Origin: a virus
IMG/VR virus record: IMGVR_UViG_3300045051_000978
Location: 32,001-96,000 of that record
Direction: 5' to 3' (one strand)
DNA: 64,000 nucleotides
Below, one piece after another: positions 4,958 through 53,157 of the stretch. The stretch's first letter is position 1; each line of letters starts with the position of its first letter. The translations under genes were made by a program, and so were the position numbers. The notes under the pieces are model-generated. The model was not told the DNA's origin. It worked only from the letters and a program-made list of their open reading frames with translations, and made no database searches.

Positions 4958-5031
4958 TGGTGCCTGCGGCAGGAATCGAACCCGCTTGTCCCGGTTTAGA
5001 GTCGGTAGGCCAGCCAATGGCCCACGCAGGC
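4958..5031 (-). tRNA. tRNA with CUA anticodon (amber suppressor), 74 nt, CCA encoded
   Basis: Acceptor GCCTGCG/CGCAGGC, D stem GGCC/GGCC, anticodon loop CT-CTA-AA, T arm GCGGG-TTCGATT-CCTGC, discriminator A then CCA; anticodon stem has only 3 Watson-Crick pairs. Confidence 0.88.
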
Positions 5032-5039
5032 TTTCAAAA

Positions 5040-5068
5040 TGTTTACACTTTTTCGCGAAACGGGTCAA
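5040..5068 (-). promoter_or_regulatory. Sigma70-like promoter for tRNA(CUA) and the AAA+ gene
   Basis: TTGACC-17 nt-TAAACA, 8 nt upstream of the tRNA 5' end. Confidence 0.55.
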
Positions 5069-18362: not shown

Positions 18363-18386
18363 TGCCCAAAGGGGTAGTTAGCTGCG

Positions 18387-33956: not shown

Positions 33957-34297
33957 TCGAGCCTTCCGAAATCGTAGACAGTCTGCTCGAAGCCTCGGGC
34001 AGCAAAACGCGCCGTCTGATTCTTCAGAAAATGGATGCTGTGCGAAAGCGTCCAGGCTTGAGCGCAAATTACGCTCAACTCGTCTCAGGCCCATTCGGTG
34101 CCATTCCATCGTATGCCGAAGAGGACCCCAACTCGGAGTGGTGGGATAGTTCTGCCGCTCAAAACCTGTTGCGAACGCTGACCGACATGCTGTCCCCTGA
34201 CAGCGATTACGGTGTCAAACCCGGTGGGCCGACCCACGTGTACCCCGGTGCCCGTCAGAGCTGGCAGAAGACTGACCGCGATGTTGCCGGCCGATAG
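33953..34297 (+). CDS. Hypothetical protein with LLE leader
   Basis: MIEPSEIVDSLLE; ATGA-coupled. Confidence 0.6.
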   Translation: MIEPSEIVDSLLEASGSKTRRLILQKMDAVRKRPGLSANYAQLVSGPFGAIPSYAEEDPNSEWWDSSAAQNLLRTLTDMLSPDSDYGVKPGGPTHVYPGARQSWQKTDRDVAGR

Positions 34298-34304
34298 TTA
34301 GAGC

Positions 34305-42478: not shown

Positions 42479-42506
42479 CTTGTCCTACCTACCCGTTCTT
42501 AGAGGC

Positions 42507-43161: not shown

Positions 43162-43644
43162 ATGTCTGAAATCGCGCCCAGCCTCGTCGGTAAGCTCCTG
43201 GAGGACGGTGAGCAGCCTAATCCCGAACGGGAAGAGCTGCATCGTCCGGAGGACGCAGACAAGTGGGAAGGTGCCTACAGGACCTTCGACGAGCTGTGGG
43301 CGCTCAAGCAGAAGCAGATGGAGCTGTTCCGCGAGCTGGGCGCGTCCATCGCCTACCGGCGGGCTCTGCACAAGGTCGGTCTGGTGCCTGGACAGGTGAA
43401 GAATGTCGTGCGCGCCAGTGACATCTACGAGACGACGCCCATCACGCCTGGGCACCCGCTCAAGGCCATCCGCTTCAGCTACGCGAAGCGGTATCCGAAT
43501 GCCCTGGTCGGTGTCGTCACCAAGGACGACCGACACGTCTACTTCCACGATCCCGTGCCGCGGCAGTACGGCGAGCAGGCACCGACCTACGCCGAGTTCA
43601 ACGCTAAGCGGCAGGCGGCTCGGGAACAGGCAGCGGGTTACTAG
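43162..43644 (+). CDS. Hypothetical protein with LLE leader
   Basis: MSEIAPSLVGKLLE; TAATTA and TTGAAA-16-TACCCT upstream. Confidence 0.65.
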   Translation: MSEIAPSLVGKLLEDGEQPNPEREELHRPEDADKWEGAYRTFDELWALKQKQMELFRELGASIAYRRALHKVGLVPGQVKNVVRASDIYETTPITPGHPLKAIRFSYAKRYPNALVGVVTKDDRHVYFHDPVPRQYGEQAPTYAEFNAKRQAAREQAAGY

Positions 43645-44482
43645 GCTCAGCGTAGAAAGCCGAGAAGGTGACGGGCAGAATTTCGGACGTGCGCAGCCGC
43701 ATGTCGTCGGGCAGATGCACGCGGACGTTTACAAATCCGCGATCCATGAGGTGCTGCCGAATGGTGCGCGCAATGTCGCCGACGTTCTGCCGCGTCATCT
43801 TCTGCCGCAGCCTTCGCCCACCTGACGCGTGCGTGATGACGCGGGCGCTTACGTTGACGATTCCCTTCCCCTCGTACCAGTTGACGTGCTCGATCTCGTA
43901 GACACCTGGCACGACAGCGCGCAGCTTCGGCAGGAGATCGCCGTGCTCGTTGGGCCACTGAATCTCGTCGGCGATTGAGCCGTCGTCGTCCAGGCTCTCT
44001 TGGCGCGAACCAAACTTGCGCTGCCACTCCTGTTCCTTCCAGAGCCTGCGTTTCTTCGCGATGGACCACCAGTCCCTGTACTTCGGCGGCGCGTACAGCT
44101 TGGGCGCGACCCTGAACGAGACCATGCCTCGCCCAGGCGCATCACTGAGGTTCACGTAGACCTCCACGACAAAAAGATCGTGGGCCGTCGCGAAGCGCTC
44201 TGCACCGCGGCGCAGACGCGTGCGTAGAGCCGACTGTGATGTCTCGGGCGGAGCCTGTACGTCAACCTGGAGGTAAACGTCCCGGTCATCGTGGCCGAGA
44301 TCGCGGCTGTCGTGGGCCAGGTGAAACTTCCAGGGTTGAAGATTGTCGTTGAAGAATTTGACGACCTCTTCTTTTGAAAACGCCGTGGGCGACGCGGCAC
44401 GAACCAGCTCCTCCGAGTCAAAGTCATCGGGCGCTCCATCTTCCAGGAGCGCCCGCGCAACCGAACTGGCCGACGAGATCAC
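43604..44482 (-). CDS. Two-module protein with LLE leader
   Basis: MISSASSVARALLEDGAPDDFDSEE; internal QESLDDDGSIADEI; TAGTTA 4 nt upstream. Confidence 0.65.
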   Translation of the reverse strand: MISSASSVARALLEDGAPDDFDSEELVRAASPTAFSKEEVVKFFNDNLQPWKFHLAHDSRDLGHDDRDVYLQVDVQAPPETSQSALRTRLRRGAERFATAHDLFVVEVYVNLSDAPGRGMVSFRVAPKLYAPPKYRDWWSIAKKRRLWKEQEWQRKFGSRQESLDDDGSIADEIQWPNEHGDLLPKLRAVVPGVYEIEHVNWYEGKGIVNVSARVITHASGGRRLRQKMTRQNVGDIARTIRQHLMDRGFVNVRVHLPDDMRLRTSEILPVTFSAFYAEPSNPLPVPEPPAA

Positions 44483-44835
44483 GCCCTAACTAGCGGCGTC
44501 TGCGCGGCCAGCCATGCCTGGTAGCAGCGTTCCGCGGCCAGCTTGGAATCGTCGCGAGCACTCATCATCTCGCGAGCGCGTTGCTTGGCCTTGAACAGCA
44601 ATCCTGTCGGGAACCAGTGCGGCGCGGCAACGCTCAGGCGCTGACGGATCGCCTCGTAGCGTGGCGTATCCACCTCCGCCCGCTGCTTCACAGCGCTGCC
44701 TGAGTTCGGGTTGACGGACCGAAGCCGGTGCTTGTGCGCCCACTTCAGGTCACGGATGTTGGCACTCAGCTGTCTGTACTCGGCGCGCCACTCAGAACGC
44801 CACAGCAGGTAATCTTCCTTGGTCTTGAATTCCAT
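44479..44835 (-). CDS. Helical phage protein (F.TKE.YL.WR..W...Y..LS..IR), third gene of the amber operon
   Basis: ATG 2 nt after the upstream TGA. Confidence 0.7.
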   Translation of the reverse strand: MEFKTKEDYLLWRSEWRAEYRQLSANIRDLKWAHKHRLRSVNPNSGSAVKQRAEVDTPRYEAIRQRLSVAAPHWFPTGLLFKAKQRAREMMSARDDSKLAAERCYQAWLAAQTPLVRA

Positions 44836-44837
44836 AA

Positions 44838-45074
44838 TCAGCGATCAAATACGGGGTTGATGTCAGCCAGTCTGTAAACGTTATCGACGCGCCTGTCGTT
44901 CTCCTTCCAGTCCTTGTTGATGGACTCGGCGAAGCGACACGCAGCCGCGTCATCCTCGAAGGTCAGCACTTCCGTCTGCGTATCGGTTCGCCGGCAACAG
45001 CCGCAGAAGTAGCCGTTGCCAACGGTGTAAACAACGAGGTAGGGCACCTACGTGGGTTCAGTCTGTTCGCTCAT
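44838..45074 (-). CDS. CGCC-motif protein with in-frame TAG at codon 9
   Basis: ATG 45074 overlaps the pth2 stop (ATGA): MSEQTEPT-TAG-VPYLVVYTVGNGYFCGCC; the ORF track starts at the GTG right after the TAG. Confidence 0.65.
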
Positions 45075-45499
45075 GGTATCAGTCGAAGGCGCTTGGTGAT
45101 GTGTTCCACTTCGTCTCTGGTGGCCGGGCCAAATCCGAGCGCCGTAACGGTCGGCTCGCCGCCAAAGAAATCGGGGCATCCTGAGTCCACGACCAGGAAA
45201 TGGGGGATGCCAGAGGAAGCGCAGAGATCGGCTGCGCGCAGGAGATGAGAGTAGGACGCGGTGAGGGCGACCTTGGTGCCAGGAAGGTCAGCAGCGTACG
45301 CACGCGCCACCTCCGGCCGGGAGGACTGCGAGGACAAAAAAGAGCCCAGGAACGCGTGTCCAGCTTGGCTGGCAGCTTTTCCTGGGGTCATGCCGGCGTC
45401 GGAGCGGACGACGGCGTACAGACGAAGCGTTGGGTCAGACGACACCTCTTCCGTGAGGATCGGAGGAGGGGTAGAGTTGGAAACCTACGTCGGCTTCAC
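45071..45499 (-). CDS. pth2: Pth2-family peptidyl-tRNA hydrolase with in-frame TAG at codon 5
   Basis: LYAVVRSDAGMTPGKAASQAGHA...VDSG...GEPTVTALGFGP; GTG 45499 sits at the leaderless position: MKPT-TAG-VSNSTPPPILTEEVSSDP. Confidence 0.8.
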
Positions 45500-45506
45500 G
45501 TGGGAC

Positions 45507-45535
45507 ACTTTTGCTTGAAGCGTTGAAGGTGTCAA
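45507..45535 (-). promoter_or_regulatory. Sigma70-like promoter of the pth2 operon
   Basis: Perfect TTGACA-17-AAAAGT (weak -10); GTG 7 nt downstream. Confidence 0.6.
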
Positions 45536-48272: not shown

Positions 48273-48746
48273 ATGAAACTCAAGGTCATCATCAGCGGAG
48301 GGCAAACTGGAGCCGACCGCGCCGGTTTGGATTTTGCACGCGAAAACGGGATGTACCACGGCGGCTTTTGTCCGGCCGGCAGGCGTGCAGAAAACGGACG
48401 AATACCAGAACAGTACAAGCTGATCGAGCTGGACACGGACGACTACGCAGTGCGTACCGGCCTGAACGTGCTCATCAGCGACGCAACCGTGATCGTACAC
48501 GCCAACCCGATCACGCCTGGATCGGCGCTGACGATCCGCTGCTGTGAAGAAGCCAATCGGCCCTACCTGCTGATTCCTGTGAACATGGTTCCTCTGGAAG
48601 CAGCTTCAGCCCTCAGGAAATGGGTGTGGGCGCGAAATATCCGAGCGCTGAACGTGGCTGGCTCCCGCGAATCGCGCTGCCCAGGCGTCTACGCCTACAC
48701 GCTCGACATCCTCAATCGAGCGCACGCGATGGATCAGCCCGAATAG
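48273..48746 (+). CDS. SLOG-superfamily ('molybdenum carrier'/YpsA-like) protein
   Basis: KVIISGGQTGADRAGLDFA, HGGFCPAGRRAENG, RTGLNV..SDAT, LNVAGSRES. Confidence 0.85.
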   Translation: MKLKVIISGGQTGADRAGLDFARENGMYHGGFCPAGRRAENGRIPEQYKLIELDTDDYAVRTGLNVLISDATVIVHANPITPGSALTIRCCEEANRPYLLIPVNMVPLEAASALRKWVWARNIRALNVAGSRESRCPGVYAYTLDILNRAHAMDQPE

Positions 48747-48753
48747 TTAGGCC

Positions 48754-51807: not shown

Positions 51808-53157
51808 CTACGCATGGGGATCGGCCAAAACGCCAGTGGTAAACGTCTTCTCAACGCTGGTGCGCCCTTCGGAGTAGAGCGCCAGCGGAATGCGAAGCCC
51901 GACCGAGAACAGGTTCGCAAGGTCGTCCGTTTTGAGATTTTCGACGCGGCAGGACGTGATCGGACGCACACGTTCCAGCTGCGCAGACTGACGTTTACGC
52001 GCTTCCAGGTCGTCAGCGTCGAGCGGCTTGAGGGCGAACGGCTGCGAACTGCGAAGGCCCTCGGTAAGGCGAAAATCACCCACGCGAGCAATCTGGTCGA
52101 GGCAGGTCACTGCCAGCGCGTCGAGCCCGCCGTTTGTCTTGGCGACATCGATGCTGTACCGGAGGATGTCCAGGTTCCACCAGCCGCAGCGAAGCTTGCT
52201 CTGCCACGGATTCTCGGGGTTGTACTCGTCCGGCAGCGCCTGCGTAAGCAGATCATCCTGACCTACAAAAGGCCCGGCTCCGTGGCGTGTGGCGTAGGCG
52301 CGGATGACTCCGATGACCGTCCGTGGGCACCTGACCTCAGCTTCGTCCAGGACGACGTGCGCGTTGCGCGCCGTGGTGGTGGACCAAGTCGTGTACGGAT
52401 GGAATCCGTAATTCTCGTCGAGGAGAACGCCCTGGGCACCCTCCATGATCGCCGTATCGTACCGGTTGAGCAGCTCCGCAACCTCCATCGGATCGTTCAG
52501 GATCGTGACCTTCTGGCCCCAGGCCACGTAGCGCTGGACCAGGTCTGAAACAGGCACGTCCATGGTGCTCAACTCCTTGACAACGATCTTGTTGGTCAGA
52601 TCGAGCGGAAAGCGCCCCACAGTCTGCCGCATCACGGTTCGCAGGTGCTGAAGCTTGGTTTCAAGCAACTCAGGCTGAAGAACATCTTCGATCACCGGAG
52701 CCATGGTGAGCGCCGCGGTGGCGTAGGCGACCGTCTCGCCGATGCCCATACCGCAGCTGCCGTGCCGGTTGTCGCCGCGGGCCAGCTCGCGCAGCCGGTT
52801 GGCCATCCGGTGGTAGGGCGTGGTCATCAGGCACCGGCCGTCCACGTACATGCGGTTGAACGCTCCGGTGACGCCTTGCTTCACGAGGTGAGCTTCCTCG
52901 TGGACCATCGCCAGCGGGTTGACCAGACACGGCCCGGCCAGGAGCGTCCGGCACCCTGGAACAAACGTCCCTGAGCCGAACTGCGCGAAGCAGTGGTGCT
53001 TCCCTGAGATCGCATCGACGACGTTATGGCCGGCTTGGGCTCCTCCGTTGAAACGGACGACCAGCTCGGCTCCGTACCGGCGCACCAGGGCATCCACCAC
53101 GGTGCCCTTGCCGGAGTCTCCGTATCCCAGGTCAACGACGACGAACGCGTTTTTCAC
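51808..53157 (-). CDS. purA: Adenylosuccinate synthetase-like protein (divergent PurA clade)
   Basis: DLGYGDSGKG, RFNGGAQAGHNV, HGSCGMGIGET, EGAQGVLLD, YATRHGAGPF, TCLD. Confidence 0.85.
   Translation of the reverse strand: MKNAFVVVDLGYGDSGKGTVVDALVRRYGAELVVRFNGGAQAGHNVVDAISGKHHCFAQFGSGTFVPGCRTLLAGPCLVNPLAMVHEEAHLVKQGVTGAFNRMYVDGRCLMTTPYHRMANRLRELARGDNRHGSCGMGIGETVAYATAALTMAPVIEDVLQPELLETKLQHLRTVMRQTVGRFPLDLTNKIVVKELSTMDVPVSDLVQRYVAWGQKVTILNDPMEVAELLNRYDTAIMEGAQGVLLDENYGFHPYTTWSTTTARNAHVVLDEAEVRCPRTVIGVIRAYATRHGAGPFVGQDDLLTQALPDEYNPENPWQSKLRCGWWNLDILRYSIDVAKTNGGLDALAVTCLDQIARVGDFRLTEGLRSSQPFALKPLDADDLEARKRQSAQLERVRPITSCRVENLKTDDLANLFSVGLRIPLALYSEGRTSVEKTFTTGVLADPHA

What the first reader, a model, noticed from the sequence alone, without database searches (positions are those of the whole stretch)
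44479..45535. Amber-gated operon: a Pth2 peptidyl-tRNA hydrolase and the next gene each have an early in-frame TAG in the same Pro-Thr-TAG-Val context
Seen: a TTGACA-17-AAAAGT promoter puts a GTG (45499) 7 nt after the -10, the spacing used by the other leaderless early genes here. That frame reads GTG AAG CCG ACG TAG GTT TCC... (MKPT*VSNSTPPPILTEEV) straight into the Pth2 domain, with TAG at 45487-45485. The pth2 stop overlaps an ATG (ATGA, 45074) that reads ATG AGC GAA CAG ACT GAA CCC ACG TAG GTG CCC TAC (MSEQTEPT*VPY) into the next ORF, with TAG at 45050-45048. Both share CC(G/C) ACG TAG GT. A third gene starts 2 nt after the second stop, and the same genome encodes a CUA tRNA. Known: Pth recycles dropped-off peptidyl-tRNA; short minigenes (lambda bar) promote drop-off; PPP stalls ribosomes without EF-P. 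Inference: a readthrough switch in which Pth2 and its partners are made only when UAG is suppressed, by the phage tRNA or by loss of RF1 activity. It would sense termination failure and answer with tRNA rescue. I know of no description of this arrangement.
Basis: partly seen in the sequence, partly recalled or inferred. Interest (0 to 1): 0.92.

Follow-up and report, generated by a model that had tools for sequence, protein, structure and literature searches.

The report
Suppressor-tRNA-gated phage Pth2 gene
A 127-kb soil phage that otherwise uses the normal genetic code keeps a UAG stop at the fifth codon of its peptidyl-tRNA hydrolase gene and carries its own UAG-reading tRNA, a pairing kept in dozens of distant phages, so the enzyme is probably made in full only when that tRNA overrides the stop.

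Summary
The phage's only suppressor tRNA has a CUA anticodon (window 4958-5031).

- In 44 distinct homologous loci, window included, the Pth2 frame is closed by a stop (TAG 41, TGA 2, TAA 1). In 43 of 44 the stop lies 1-7 codons after an in-frame start.
- 32 of 44 loci have no canonical start after the stop.
- Where a suppressor tRNA was found, its anticodon matches the stop in 39 of 39 cases, 3 of them TGA-UCA. This includes the cultured phages Atu_ph07 (TGA/UCA) and Phosso (TAG/CUA).
- TAG is still an ordinary stop here: 35 of 194 rough gene calls end in it. This is a gene-specific gate, not a recoded genome.

The second gene is undecided. It has the exact CCC-ACG-TAG-GT context selected at Pth2 leaders, but its family normally starts at the position of the GTG that follows the TAG.

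The RF1-loss, minigene and PPP ideas are untested. Five literature searches found no description. This scan has reported the same module on other DNA.

The parts
4958..5031 (-). Phage amber-suppressor tRNA: anticodon CUA, encoded CCA, G1-C72, A73, short variable loop. It is the only suppressor among the genome's 19 tRNAs.
   Evidence: ARAGORN on the window and on the genome. Sequence read.
5040..5068 (-). Promoter-like site for the tRNA: TTGACC (5068-5063), 17 nt, TAAACA (5045-5040), then 8 nt to tRNA base 1.
   Evidence: Sequence and listing. A consensus match only; function not shown.
45507..45535 (-). Promoter-like site: TTGACA (45535-45530), 17 nt, AAAAGT (45512-45507), ending 7 nt before GTG 45499.
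   Evidence: It is below the threshold of the consensus scan. Relative L065 has TTGACA-17-ATTATT-9-ATG at the same place.
45488..45499 (-). Pth2 leader: GTG AAG CCG ACG (M K P T). In-frame alternatives lie further upstream: GTG 45508 and TTG 45535.
   Evidence: In 43 of 44 homologous loci an in-frame start lies 1-7 codons before the stop.
45485..45487 (-). In-frame UAG gate of Pth2, in the context CCG ACG TAG GTT.
   Evidence: TAG, TGA or TAA stands at this place in 44 of 44 readable loci. ACG TAG GTT or ATT recurs in L015, L018, L023, L025, L047 and twice in L065.
45446..45484 (-). Linker of 13 codons (VSNSTPPPILTEE) between the UAG and GTG 45445. It starts V-S-N like the nearest relatives.
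   Evidence: L015 VSES.., L019 VSND.., L023 VSS.., L065 VSPA...
45071..45445 (-). Pth2 domain (124 aa counted from GTG 45445, stop TGA 45073-45071). GTG 45445 is a possible ungated start.
   Evidence: Pfam PF01981, 67.7 bits. A profile of the clade matches solved Pth2 chains over their full length, for example 2zv3 at E 3.3e-20.
45051..45074 (-). Gene-2 leader ATG AGC GAA CAG ACT GAA CCC ACG (MSEQTEPT). Its ATG overlaps the Pth2 stop (ATGA).
   Evidence: The N-terminus MTESTEK-PYL of family member P0016 resembles it. That could be chance.
45048..45050 (-). UAG in the context CCC ACG TAG GTG, directly before the gene-2 body.
   Evidence: The 12-mer CCC ACG TAG GT is identical to that of the L015 Pth2 leader.
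44838..45047 (-). Gene 2, 69 aa counted from GTG 45047. It belongs to a small GNGYxCxCCR family of unknown function and is an insertion relative to the conserved Pth2 / gene-3 pair.
44479..44835 (-). Gene 3, 118 aa, predicted helical, family motif TKEEYLxWRxxWKxxY. It is the conserved neighbour directly after gated Pth2 genes.
   Evidence: Homologues follow Pth2 in L006, L008, L017, L018, L019/L021 and L065. No Pfam or PHROG family. The Atlas model gave no informative match.
43604..44482 (-). Gene 4, 292 aa, GTG start overlapping the gene-3 stop. No known family. Last gene of the co-directional block.

Best explanation
The Pth2 gene of this phage is a read-through-gated gene.

- Translation starts at a short leader: GTG 45499, or an in-frame start just upstream.
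- It meets UAG at codon 5 and continues into the Pth2 domain only when the phage's own tRNA(CUA) (window 4958-5031) inserts an amino acid there.
- The amount of full-length Pth2 therefore follows the activity of the suppressor tRNA.
- The genes behind it (gene 2, gene 3, gene 4) are joined to it by overlapping or nearly touching stop and start codons, so part of their translation probably follows Pth2 translation.

Shown by comparison:
- The stop, the short leader and the tRNA belong together.
- The stop and the anticodon change together.

Inferred:
- The tRNA is made, charged and decodes this UAG.
- Purpose: a stop-reading tRNA sends ribosomes past normal stops and raises the load of stalled or dropped peptidyl-tRNA. 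A tRNA-recycling hydrolase made in proportion to suppression would offset that cost (feed-forward). Alternatively it would act back on the suppressor (feedback).

In this phage a second start at GTG 45445 may add an ungated basal level.
For: 1. Family. Pfam PTH2 scores 67.7 bits against a cut-off of 23. A profile of the clade matches solved Pth2 chains end to end.

2. Conservation. Of 58 rows (57 fetched loci plus the window), 45 are distinct and 44 are readable.
- Upstream in-frame stop: TAG 41, TGA 2, TAA 1.
- 43 of 44 have an in-frame ATG, GTG or TTG 1-7 codons before the stop.
- 32 of 44 have no canonical start between the stop and the first beta strand.
- GC content of these loci runs from 38% to 64%.

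3. Covariation.
- A suppressor tRNA was found in 35 of 43 fetched loci, and all 35 match the stop: 33 TAG-CUA and 2 TGA-UCA, with 0 mismatches.
- Further matches are this window, L065, cultured phage Phosso (TAG with two tRNA-CUA) and cultured phage Atu_ph07 (TGA with one tRNA-UCA). The Atu_ph07 suppressor is also stated in PMC6102473, section 27.

4. Ribosome-binding sites in several loci are spaced for the leader ATG, not for the codon after the stop (L005, L029, L032, L033, L034, L040).

5. The context ACG TAG GTT is shared with the nearest relatives, and occurs twice in L065.

6. Start-type codons are rarer in the linker (17 of 524) than in the Pth2 body (287 of 4820), Fisher p 0.0095. The loci are related, so this is only a hint.

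7. The feature is specific to this clade. Five more distant phage Pth2 genes (XacN1, Phabba, Astolliot, Xoo-sp13, RAS14) have ordinary starts and no leader stop.

8. The genome is not recoded.
- 35 of 194 rough gene calls end in TAG.
- Reading TAG as sense lengthens ORFs no more than reading TAA as sense: 64 against 61 ORFs of 250 aa or more, with 49 under the standard code.

9. The base after a gate stop is a purine in 43 of 44 loci. After 29 ordinary TAG stops of this genome it is a pyrimidine in 21, my count from the list.
Against: - Nothing is experimental. Expression, charging and identity of the tRNA are unknown, and no parent tRNA was recognisable.
- In this window a canonical GTG (45445) lies 13 codons after the UAG and would give a complete domain without read-through. 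12 of 44 loci have such a start.
- One low-depth contig (X4, depth 3.3) has a 1-nt deletion at 45447. That would unlink the leader from the domain while leaving the GTG 45445 ORF intact. It may be an assembly error.
- The tRNA lies 40 kb from the gene here, not beside it.
- TAG ends about 35 genes of this phage, and there is no excess of nearby back-up stops: median extension 27 codons against 33.5 for TGA. A strong suppressor should therefore be costly.
- The conserved acidic position aligns with the Asp of solved Pth2, but the position four residues later, a Thr in 2zv3, is not kept in this clade. The substrate could differ from that of classical Pth2.
- The loci are not phylogenetically independent.
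Confidence: 0.8

Rival explanations
1. Gene 2 is gated as well. Ribosomes leaving Pth2 restart at the overlapping ATG 45074, translate MSEQTEPT, and need tRNA(CUA) at UAG 45050-45048 to continue into the 69-aa body, giving a 78-aa protein. The operon would then hold two amber gates in the same context.
For: - The 12-mer CCC ACG TAG GT is identical to the Pth2 leader of L015 and 11 of 12 identical to this phage's own Pth2 gate.
- Of 8 ACGTAGGT sites in 127 kb, only these two are sense-strand and in frame with an ORF start.
- In 145,640 nt of related loci, 7 of 10 ACGTAG[AG]T sites are Pth2 gates.
- The ATGA overlap places the leader ATG exactly at the Pth2 stop.
- The codon after the stop is (A/G)TN, as in 41 of 44 Pth2 gates.
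- P0016 starts MTESTEK-PYL, which resembles MSEQTEPT-x-V-PYL.
- The only listed strain difference in the leader (45054, CCC to CCG) is synonymous in the leader frame.
Against: - The GTG directly after the TAG is a canonical start. It gives MPYL, the usual M-x-Y-L N-terminus of the family: 15 of 20 aligned members begin within 2 residues of it, or later.
- The 74%-identical P0002 is also called from that position.
- 5 of 5 remote family loci have plain ATG starts and no leader stop.
- A leader-like start before a nearby stop is common by chance here: 17 of 83 genes.
- Gene 2 is absent from the other Pth2 loci, so no comparative test was possible.
Confidence: 0.45
2. Both TAGs are ordinary upstream stops. 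Pth2 starts at GTG 45445 and gene 2 at GTG 45047, and the leaders are chance or relic sequence. In this phage the gate would have decayed.
For: - Canonical GTGs stand at both places.
- The GTG 45445 product has the same distance to the first strand as relatives have from their post-stop codon.
- The X4 contig has a 1-nt deletion at 45447.
- TAG is enriched just upstream of many starts in this phage as part of a TAGTTA / TAGG motif: 18 of the 38 in-frame stops that lie within 3 codons of a start are TAG.
Against: - For Pth2, the stop, the short leader and the V-S that follows are shared with the nearest relatives. L015, L018, L019 and L065 have no alternative start.
- The stop covaries with the tRNA in 39 of 39 loci.
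- This phage keeps a CUA tRNA.
- The generic start motif is TAGTTA-N4-12-start, not ACG TAG GT.
Confidence: 0.12
3. There is no read-through. The leader is a 2-8-codon mini-ORF like the lambda bar minigenes, and ribosomes that terminate at its stop restart at the adjacent codon (AUU, GUU) to make Pth2.
For: - The leader is only 1-3 codons long in 31 of 44 loci.
- The codon after the stop is ATT, ATC or ATA in 24 of 44 loci. These are near-cognate start codons.
- Link between bar minigenes and Pth: recalled from the literature, not read here.
Against: - Restarting would not care which stop codon is used, yet the stop follows the neighbouring tRNA's anticodon in 39 of 39 loci.
- In 20 of 44 loci the next codon is GTT, GTA, ACT, TAC, GAT or ATG, and all but the single ATG are poor or impossible start codons.
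- L065 has two stops 31 codons apart in one frame.
Confidence: 0.05
4. The phage reads TAG as a sense codon throughout, as in the code-15-like recoding of crAss-like and Lak phages. The two TAGs would then be ordinary sense codons.
For: - A phage-encoded tRNA(CUA) is present.
- Such phages are described in the Borges et al. preprint 10.1101/2021.08.26.457843. I saw only its search listing and the start of its abstract.
Against: - 35 of 194 rough gene calls end in TAG. Among them are high-scoring genes followed at once by the next gene.
- Reading TAG as sense gives no more long ORFs than reading TAA as sense.
- No other gene needs an internal TAG.
- Atu_ph07 has 267 genes ending in TGA according to its paper (PMC6102473, section 27), yet it gates Pth2 with TGA.
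Confidence: 0.03

Closest known systems
Stop-codon recoding in phages with phage-encoded suppressor tRNAs (TAG or TGA read as sense; Borges et al. preprint 10.1101/2021.08.26.457843; metaproteomic support in PMC9523058). For both I saw only the search listing and the start of the abstract.
   Same: A phage-encoded suppressor tRNA lets the phage translate genes that the host alone would terminate. Translation of particular genes is tied to the presence of that tRNA.
   Different: - There, many genes, mostly late ones, carry many recoded stops and the codon is hardly used as a stop. Here TAG still ends about 35 of 194 genes.
- Here one gene, possibly two, carries a single stop at a fixed early position.
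- Here the gated gene is always the same family, Pth2.
prfB (RF2) autoregulation through an early in-frame UGA (recalled, not read here)
   Same: A translation-factor gene carries an early in-frame stop. The fate of that stop reports the state of the termination or decoding machinery and sets the gene's own output.
   Different: - prfB needs a +1 frameshift, and its product is the factor that reads that very stop, which gives negative feedback.
- Whether Pth2 acts back on suppression is unknown.
Lambda bar minigenes and Pth (recalled, not read here)
   Same: Very short ORFs (AUG, one or two codons, stop) in a phage, linked by function to peptidyl-tRNA drop-off and peptidyl-tRNA hydrolase.
   Different: - The bar minigenes stand alone and poison Pth-deficient hosts.
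- Here the mini-ORF is in frame with a Pth2 gene.
- Here its stop covaries with a suppressor tRNA, which points to read-through rather than drop-off as the selected outcome.
Archaeal and eukaryotic Pth2 (PF01981; solved chains 2zv3, 1q7s, 1xty, 1wn2)
   Same: Same domain over its full length. The Lys of the GK motif is invariant in the six aligned clade members.
   Different: - A phage clade with its own signature, LYA(I/V)VR.DL.M..GKAASQAGHAFL.
- The acidic residue is D or E.
- The position four residues after it (T in 2zv3, P in this window's protein) is not conserved. Its catalytic role is recalled, not checked.
- The substrate is untested.

Membership tests
Pth2 peptidyl-tRNA hydrolase (Pfam PF01981) | Sequence match to the family model above its curated cut-off, over the whole domain | tested here: met
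   67.7 bits against a cut-off of 23; profile positions 2-114 of 115. The clade profile matches solved Pth2 chains 5-115 of 115 (2zv3, E 3.3e-20) and six more.
Pth2 peptidyl-tRNA hydrolase (Pfam PF01981) | Catalytic residues (Lys of the GK motif, an Asp, and a Thr four residues later; this residue list is recalled from the literature, not read here) | tested here: inconclusive
   - Lys is invariant (K23).
- Asp is present in the window's protein (VVDSG) but is D or E across the clade.
- The Thr position is P in the window and V or P in others.
Pth2 peptidyl-tRNA hydrolase (Pfam PF01981) | Hydrolysis of peptidyl-tRNA | not testable with these tools
   Needs an enzyme assay.
Suppressor-tRNA-gated Pth2 module (as defined by the loci compared here) | A stop codon in frame between a short leader start and the Pth2 domain | tested here: met
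   GTG, 3 codons, TAG, then the domain. The same layout holds in 44 of 44 readable loci.
Suppressor-tRNA-gated Pth2 module (as defined by the loci compared here) | A phage suppressor tRNA whose anticodon matches that stop | tested here: met
   tRNA(CUA) at 4958-5031 with TAG in the leader. It lies 40 kb away rather than adjacent. The nearest relatives (L015, L017, L018, L023, L025) also lack an adjacent tRNA within the stretch fetched.
Suppressor-tRNA-gated Pth2 module (as defined by the loci compared here) | No canonical start between the stop and the first strand, so that read-through is obligatory | tested here: not met
   GTG 45445 lies 13 codons after the TAG. 12 of 44 loci share this exception.
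Genome-wide stop-codon-recoded phage (code 15 or code 4 type) | The recoded codon is frequent inside genes and rare as a terminator; ORFs fragment under the standard code | tested here: not met
   35 of 194 gene calls end in TAG. ORFs of 250 aa or more: standard code 49, TAG as sense 64, TAA as sense 61.
prfB-type autoregulatory recoding | A +1 frameshift at the early stop, in a gene whose product decodes that stop | tested here: not met
   Leader and domain are in the same frame. Pth2 is not a release factor.
Leaderless mRNA from a sigma-70-type promoter | -35 and -10 hexamers with the start codon at the expected transcription start | tested here: inconclusive
   - TTGACA-17-AAAAGT-7-GTG; the -10 matches at 3 of 6 positions and the scan reports no site.
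- L065 has TTGACA-17-ATTATT-9-ATG.
- The tRNA has TTGACC-17-TAAACA-8.
- No transcript ends were available.

The most novel reading that the evidence does not exclude
The suppressor tRNA acts as a trans-acting translational activator of a small regulon, and the Pth2-like enzyme is its governor.

- The early stop measures how much charged tRNA(CUA) is decoding.
- The enzyme made in response acts on that tRNA's own products, either peptidyl-tRNA or acylated tRNA(CUA), or on the fallout of global read-through.
- Suppression would thus be held at a level the phage can bear while it still uses UAG as a stop.
- In this phage the same gate context (CCN ACG UAG GU) has been copied onto a second, unrelated gene. 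That would be the first sign that the gate is portable.
Probability: 0.2. Interest if true: 0.9.

Novelty: new variant of a known kind. Interest (0 to 1): 0.8.

Why it matters
Papers on large cultured phages state that they could not say what their suppressor tRNAs are for. [quoted passage not shown] The Atu_ph07 paper only counts UGA stops (PMC6102473, section 27).

A conserved target whose stop codon tracks the tRNA's anticodon gives that question a concrete and testable answer. It can be tested in phages that grow in the laboratory.

It also shows three further things:
- Gene callers truncate or miss this gene. The Atu_ph07 and Phosso CDSs start at an internal Met.
- A phage can keep a stop codon in normal use and still use it as a switch.
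- A tRNA-recycling enzyme is the one function tied to that switch, which points to a cost of suppression that the phage has to manage.

This window adds three things: the gate works with an unlinked tRNA 40 kb away, a likely leaderless promoter, and a possible second gated gene.

Tried and rejected
**Genome-wide recoding.** Rejected. An early impression that adjacent same-frame ORFs meant recoding was my own error: stop-to-stop ORFs in one frame are always adjacent.

**Paralogues of gene 2.** Three other genes of the phage start MPYL, but they are unrelated in sequence.

**Close relatives of the whole locus.** blastn of the stretch against GenBank phages gave no match. Gene 4 has no relative in IMG/VR.

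**DNA context of gene-2 homologues.** Scans of viral contigs and genome contigs found nothing for the close family. tblastn against GenBank phages found nothing. The 74% homologue P0002 is known to me only as a protein. A wider family alignment gave 5 remote loci with plain starts.

**Back-up stops after TAG-ended genes.** No excess.

**Identity of the suppressor.** The best matches among the phage's own tRNAs are only 66% identical (Arg-GCG, Gln-CTG). Discriminator bases differ among the 39 suppressors aligned. No amino acid was assigned.

**Function of genes 2, 3 and 4.** Pfam, PHROGs and the Atlas gave nothing usable.

**Small hairpins.** GUAGG...CCUAC at gene 2 and GUAGG...UCUAC at Pth2, the latter my own reading, are not present in L015 or L065. 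I dropped them.

**The gene behind the tRNA.** It is an AAA ATPase, not a translation factor.

**Habitat labels of the sequencing runs**. Not used as evidence.

**Not looked at.**
- Rows H9, H15, H17, H18 and H19 were not fetched.
- Supplementary files of papers were not opened. Supplementary Table S4 of PMC6102473 lists the Atu_ph07 tRNAs; I checked the suppressor by ARAGORN instead.

**Literature.** Five searches found no description of a stop-gated Pth2. Subscription journals are not covered by that library.


Full report
**What is in the window**

The window is bases 32001-96000 of a single 126,921-bp contig with 60% GC. A later call labels it a virus record.
- It carries 18 tRNA genes in one array outside the window. 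It has one further tRNA with anticodon CUA at window 4958-5031, minus strand.
Coordinates are given under the observation check and parts.
- Pfam places the frame after the first TAG in PTH2 (PF01981), at 67.7 bits against a cut-off of 23. The domain starts 7 residues after GTG 45445.
- A profile of the clade matches solved Pth2 chains over their whole length.

**Is the genome recoded? No.**
- A rough self-trained gene call gives 194 genes, ending in TGA 130, TAG 35 and TAA 29.
- Reading TAG as sense yields 64 ORFs of 250 aa or more. Reading TAA as sense yields 61, and the standard code yields 49.
- TAG-ended genes show no excess of nearby back-up stops.
- TAG is therefore a working terminator in this phage, and the CUA tRNA is a suppressor in a standard-code genome.

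**Comparison with homologues**

Pth2 relatives were fetched from IMG/VR, JGI metagenomes and GTDB genomes.

Of 58 rows (57 loci plus the window), 45 are distinct by the first 200 bases after the stop, and 44 can be read upstream:
- The in-frame stop that closes the Pth2 frame is TAG in 41, TGA in 2 and TAA in 1.
- An in-frame ATG, GTG or TTG lies 1-7 codons before it in 43 of 44.
- The codon after it is ATT in 20, GTT in 12, GTA in 4, ATC in 3 and another codon in 5.
- 32 of 44 have no canonical start between the stop and the conserved LYA..R strand.

Further points:
- These loci span 38-64% GC and are 40-58% identical in protein to the window's gene.
- In several, a good ribosome-binding site is spaced for the leader ATG.
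- Start-type codons are about half as frequent in the linker as in the gene body: 17 of 524 against 287 of 4820, p 0.0095. The loci are not independent.

**The decisive point: covariation**
- ARAGORN finds a suppressor tRNA in 35 of the 43 fetched loci, usually 10-630 nt away on the same strand.
- In all 35 the anticodon matches the leader stop: 33 TAG-CUA and 2 TGA-UCA (L024, L054), with no mismatch.
- The 8 loci without one are mostly short stretches. One of them, L008, has a tRNA-like gene with CUA in an 8-nt loop.
- L065 comes from a MAG labelled Verrucomicrobiota. It has a tRNA(CUA), then TTGACA-17-ATTATT-9-ATG, then two ambers in one frame, both as ACG TAG GTT.

Two cultured jumbo phages behave the same way:
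- Atu_ph07 reads ATG ATT GGC GAA CAC TTT TGA ATT ... and has a single suppressor, tRNA(UCA).
- Phosso reads ATG AAG TAT TAG GTT ... and has two tRNA(CUA) and no other suppressor.
- The Atu_ph07 paper states the UCA suppressor, counts 267 UGA stops in the phage and names no individual target gene (PMC6102473, section 27, passages read).
- In both GenBank records the CDS is annotated from an internal Met, which cuts off the first strand.

As controls, five more distant phage Pth2 genes have ordinary starts and no leader stop: XacN1, Phabba, Astolliot, Xoo-sp13 and RAS14.

A restart mechanism would not care which stop is used. The stop-anticodon match, 39 of 39 with the window included, therefore argues for read-through by the phage tRNA.

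**This window within the family**
- Its nearest relatives share the context: L015 CCC ACG TAG GTT TCT, L018 GAC ACG TAG GTT, L023 CAT ACG TAG GTT TCG, L017 CCG ACG TAA ATA, L065 as above, and the window CCG ACG TAG GTT TCC.
- They also share a V-S start of the linker.
- In this subfamily the tRNA is often not adjacent. In the window it is 40 kb away behind its own TTGACC-17-TAAACA site.
- Two things weaken strict gating here. GTG 45445 could start a complete 124-aa domain. One low-depth contig of run X4 also has a 1-nt deletion at 45447 that would leave only that ORF.
- An independent run (X3) has contigs identical over both TAGs. A 95% strain (X5, X6) keeps the frame, and its listed changes at 45476 and 45054 are synonymous in the leader frames. 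31 further differences were not displayed.

**Gene 2**

For a second gate:
- Its TAG sits in CCC ACG TAG GT, the same 12-mer as the L015 Pth2 gate.
- Only the two sites of the finding, out of 8 ACGTAGGT in the genome, are sense-strand and in frame with an ORF start.
- In 145,640 nt of related loci, 7 of 10 such sites are Pth2 gates.
- Its leader ATG overlaps the Pth2 stop.

Against:
- Gene 2 belongs to a small family with a GNGYxCxCCR motif: 28 representatives at E up to 0.001.
- 15 of 20 aligned members begin at or within 2 residues of the GTG 45047 position, giving M-x-Y-L.
- 5 of 5 remote loci have plain ATG starts.
- Such leader-like arrangements arise by chance in 17 of 83 genes here.
- One member, P0016, starts MTESTEK-PYL, which resembles MSEQTEPT. 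That may be chance.
- Gene 2 is an insertion. In L006, L008, L017, L018, L019/L021 and L065 the gene after Pth2 is a homologue of gene 3.

I put a real, selected read-through form of gene 2 at about even odds. Any ribosome that starts at ATG 45074 would meet a UAG in a context that the phage lineage has selected for suppression elsewhere.

**Mechanism**

Shown:
- A conserved three-part arrangement of short leader, stop and Pth2.
- A cognate suppressor tRNA.
- Covariation between the stop and the anticodon.

Inferred:
- The tRNA decodes the stop, so Pth2 output follows suppressor activity.
- The purine after the stop (43 of 44 loci) against mostly pyrimidines after ordinary TAG stops here (21 of 29, my count) fits known context effects on suppression. 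Those effects are recalled, not read here.
- Why Pth2: most likely to match a tRNA-recycling activity to the damage done by global read-through. A feedback on the suppressor itself is the bolder alternative.

**Novelty**
- Five full-text searches found no description.
- The XacN1 paper says that no target of its suppressors could be identified (PMC5852040, section 8, passages read).
- This scan has reported the same module many times on other DNA: 425 notes hold the search words. My results were obtained independently here and agree with those notes.
- I class it as a new variant of a known kind, namely regulation by stop-codon read-through with phage suppressor tRNAs.

Noticed in passing
window 44486-44492, 48744-48750, 34295-34301, 18375-18381 and others; whole genome: The hexamer TAGTTA occurs 16 times in the genome, and 13 of these lie 10-36 nt before a called start codon on the same strand (for example CTAGTTAGGGC-GTG at gene 4). 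TAGTTAG occurs 5 times in the window against 1.15 expected, and 0 of 100 shuffles reach 5. TAG makes up 18 of the 38 in-frame stops that lie within 3 codons of a start. Shine-Dalgarno sequences are largely absent. This could be a start-proximal promoter or initiation signal.
   Followed up: partly
window 42479-42506; genome 25471-25497 and 17829-17844: Divergent gene pairs whose start codons are only 16-28 nt apart share a motif (GAACGGGTA..TAGG / CTGTAGAACAGC). Their promoters must lie inside each other's coding sequence.
   Followed up: no
window 44479-44835; L006, L008, L017, L018, L019/L021, L065 just after Pth2: A helical protein family with the motif TKEEYLxWRxxWKxxY is the conserved gene directly behind gated Pth2 genes, often with an ATGA overlap. 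No known family matches it. It is probably a functional partner.
   Followed up: partly
L004 3402-3480, L005 3352-3429, L035, L039, L042, L043, L047, L049, L054 (not in the window): In many relatives a second tRNA-like gene follows Pth2. It has an 8-nt anticodon loop, which ARAGORN reads as anticodon GCAA, GTAA or GTTA. In L001 an 81-nt tRNA-Cys(GCA) stands at that place.
   Followed up: partly
L058 (MF403008.1 198552-198884) and L059 (PV764938.1 176653-176985): The GenBank CDSs of the Pth2 homologues of Atu_ph07 and Phosso start at an internal Met (LEMTAGK) and miss the first strand. The real frames begin upstream, across a TGA and a TAG respectively.
   Followed up: yes
window 44838-45047: Gene 2 belongs to a widespread family of phage proteins, typically 67-73 aa, with an invariant N-x-Y-x-C-x-C-C-R core within a GNGYxCxCCR motif (28 representatives at E up to 0.001). 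Its function is unknown.
   Followed up: partly
window 51808-51812: A PurA-like adenylosuccinate synthetase gene (449 aa, Pfam E 8.9e-60) ends in GCG TAG GTT, close to the gate context. Read-through there would add 27 codons.
   Followed up: no
window 4958-5031: The suppressor tRNA has a weak anticodon stem: three G-C pairs flanked by A.G and A.C mismatches. With its CCA it is only 74 nt long. Its CCA end lies 8 nt before the ATG of an AAA ATPase gene that itself ends in TAG.
   Followed up: partly
window 45447: A contig of run X4 (depth 3.3) lacks one base between the amber and GTG 45445. This is either an assembly error or a strain in which the leader is out of frame.
   Followed up: no
window 44437-44482 (N-terminus of gene 4): Gene 4 begins MISSASSVARALLEDG.
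   Followed up: no
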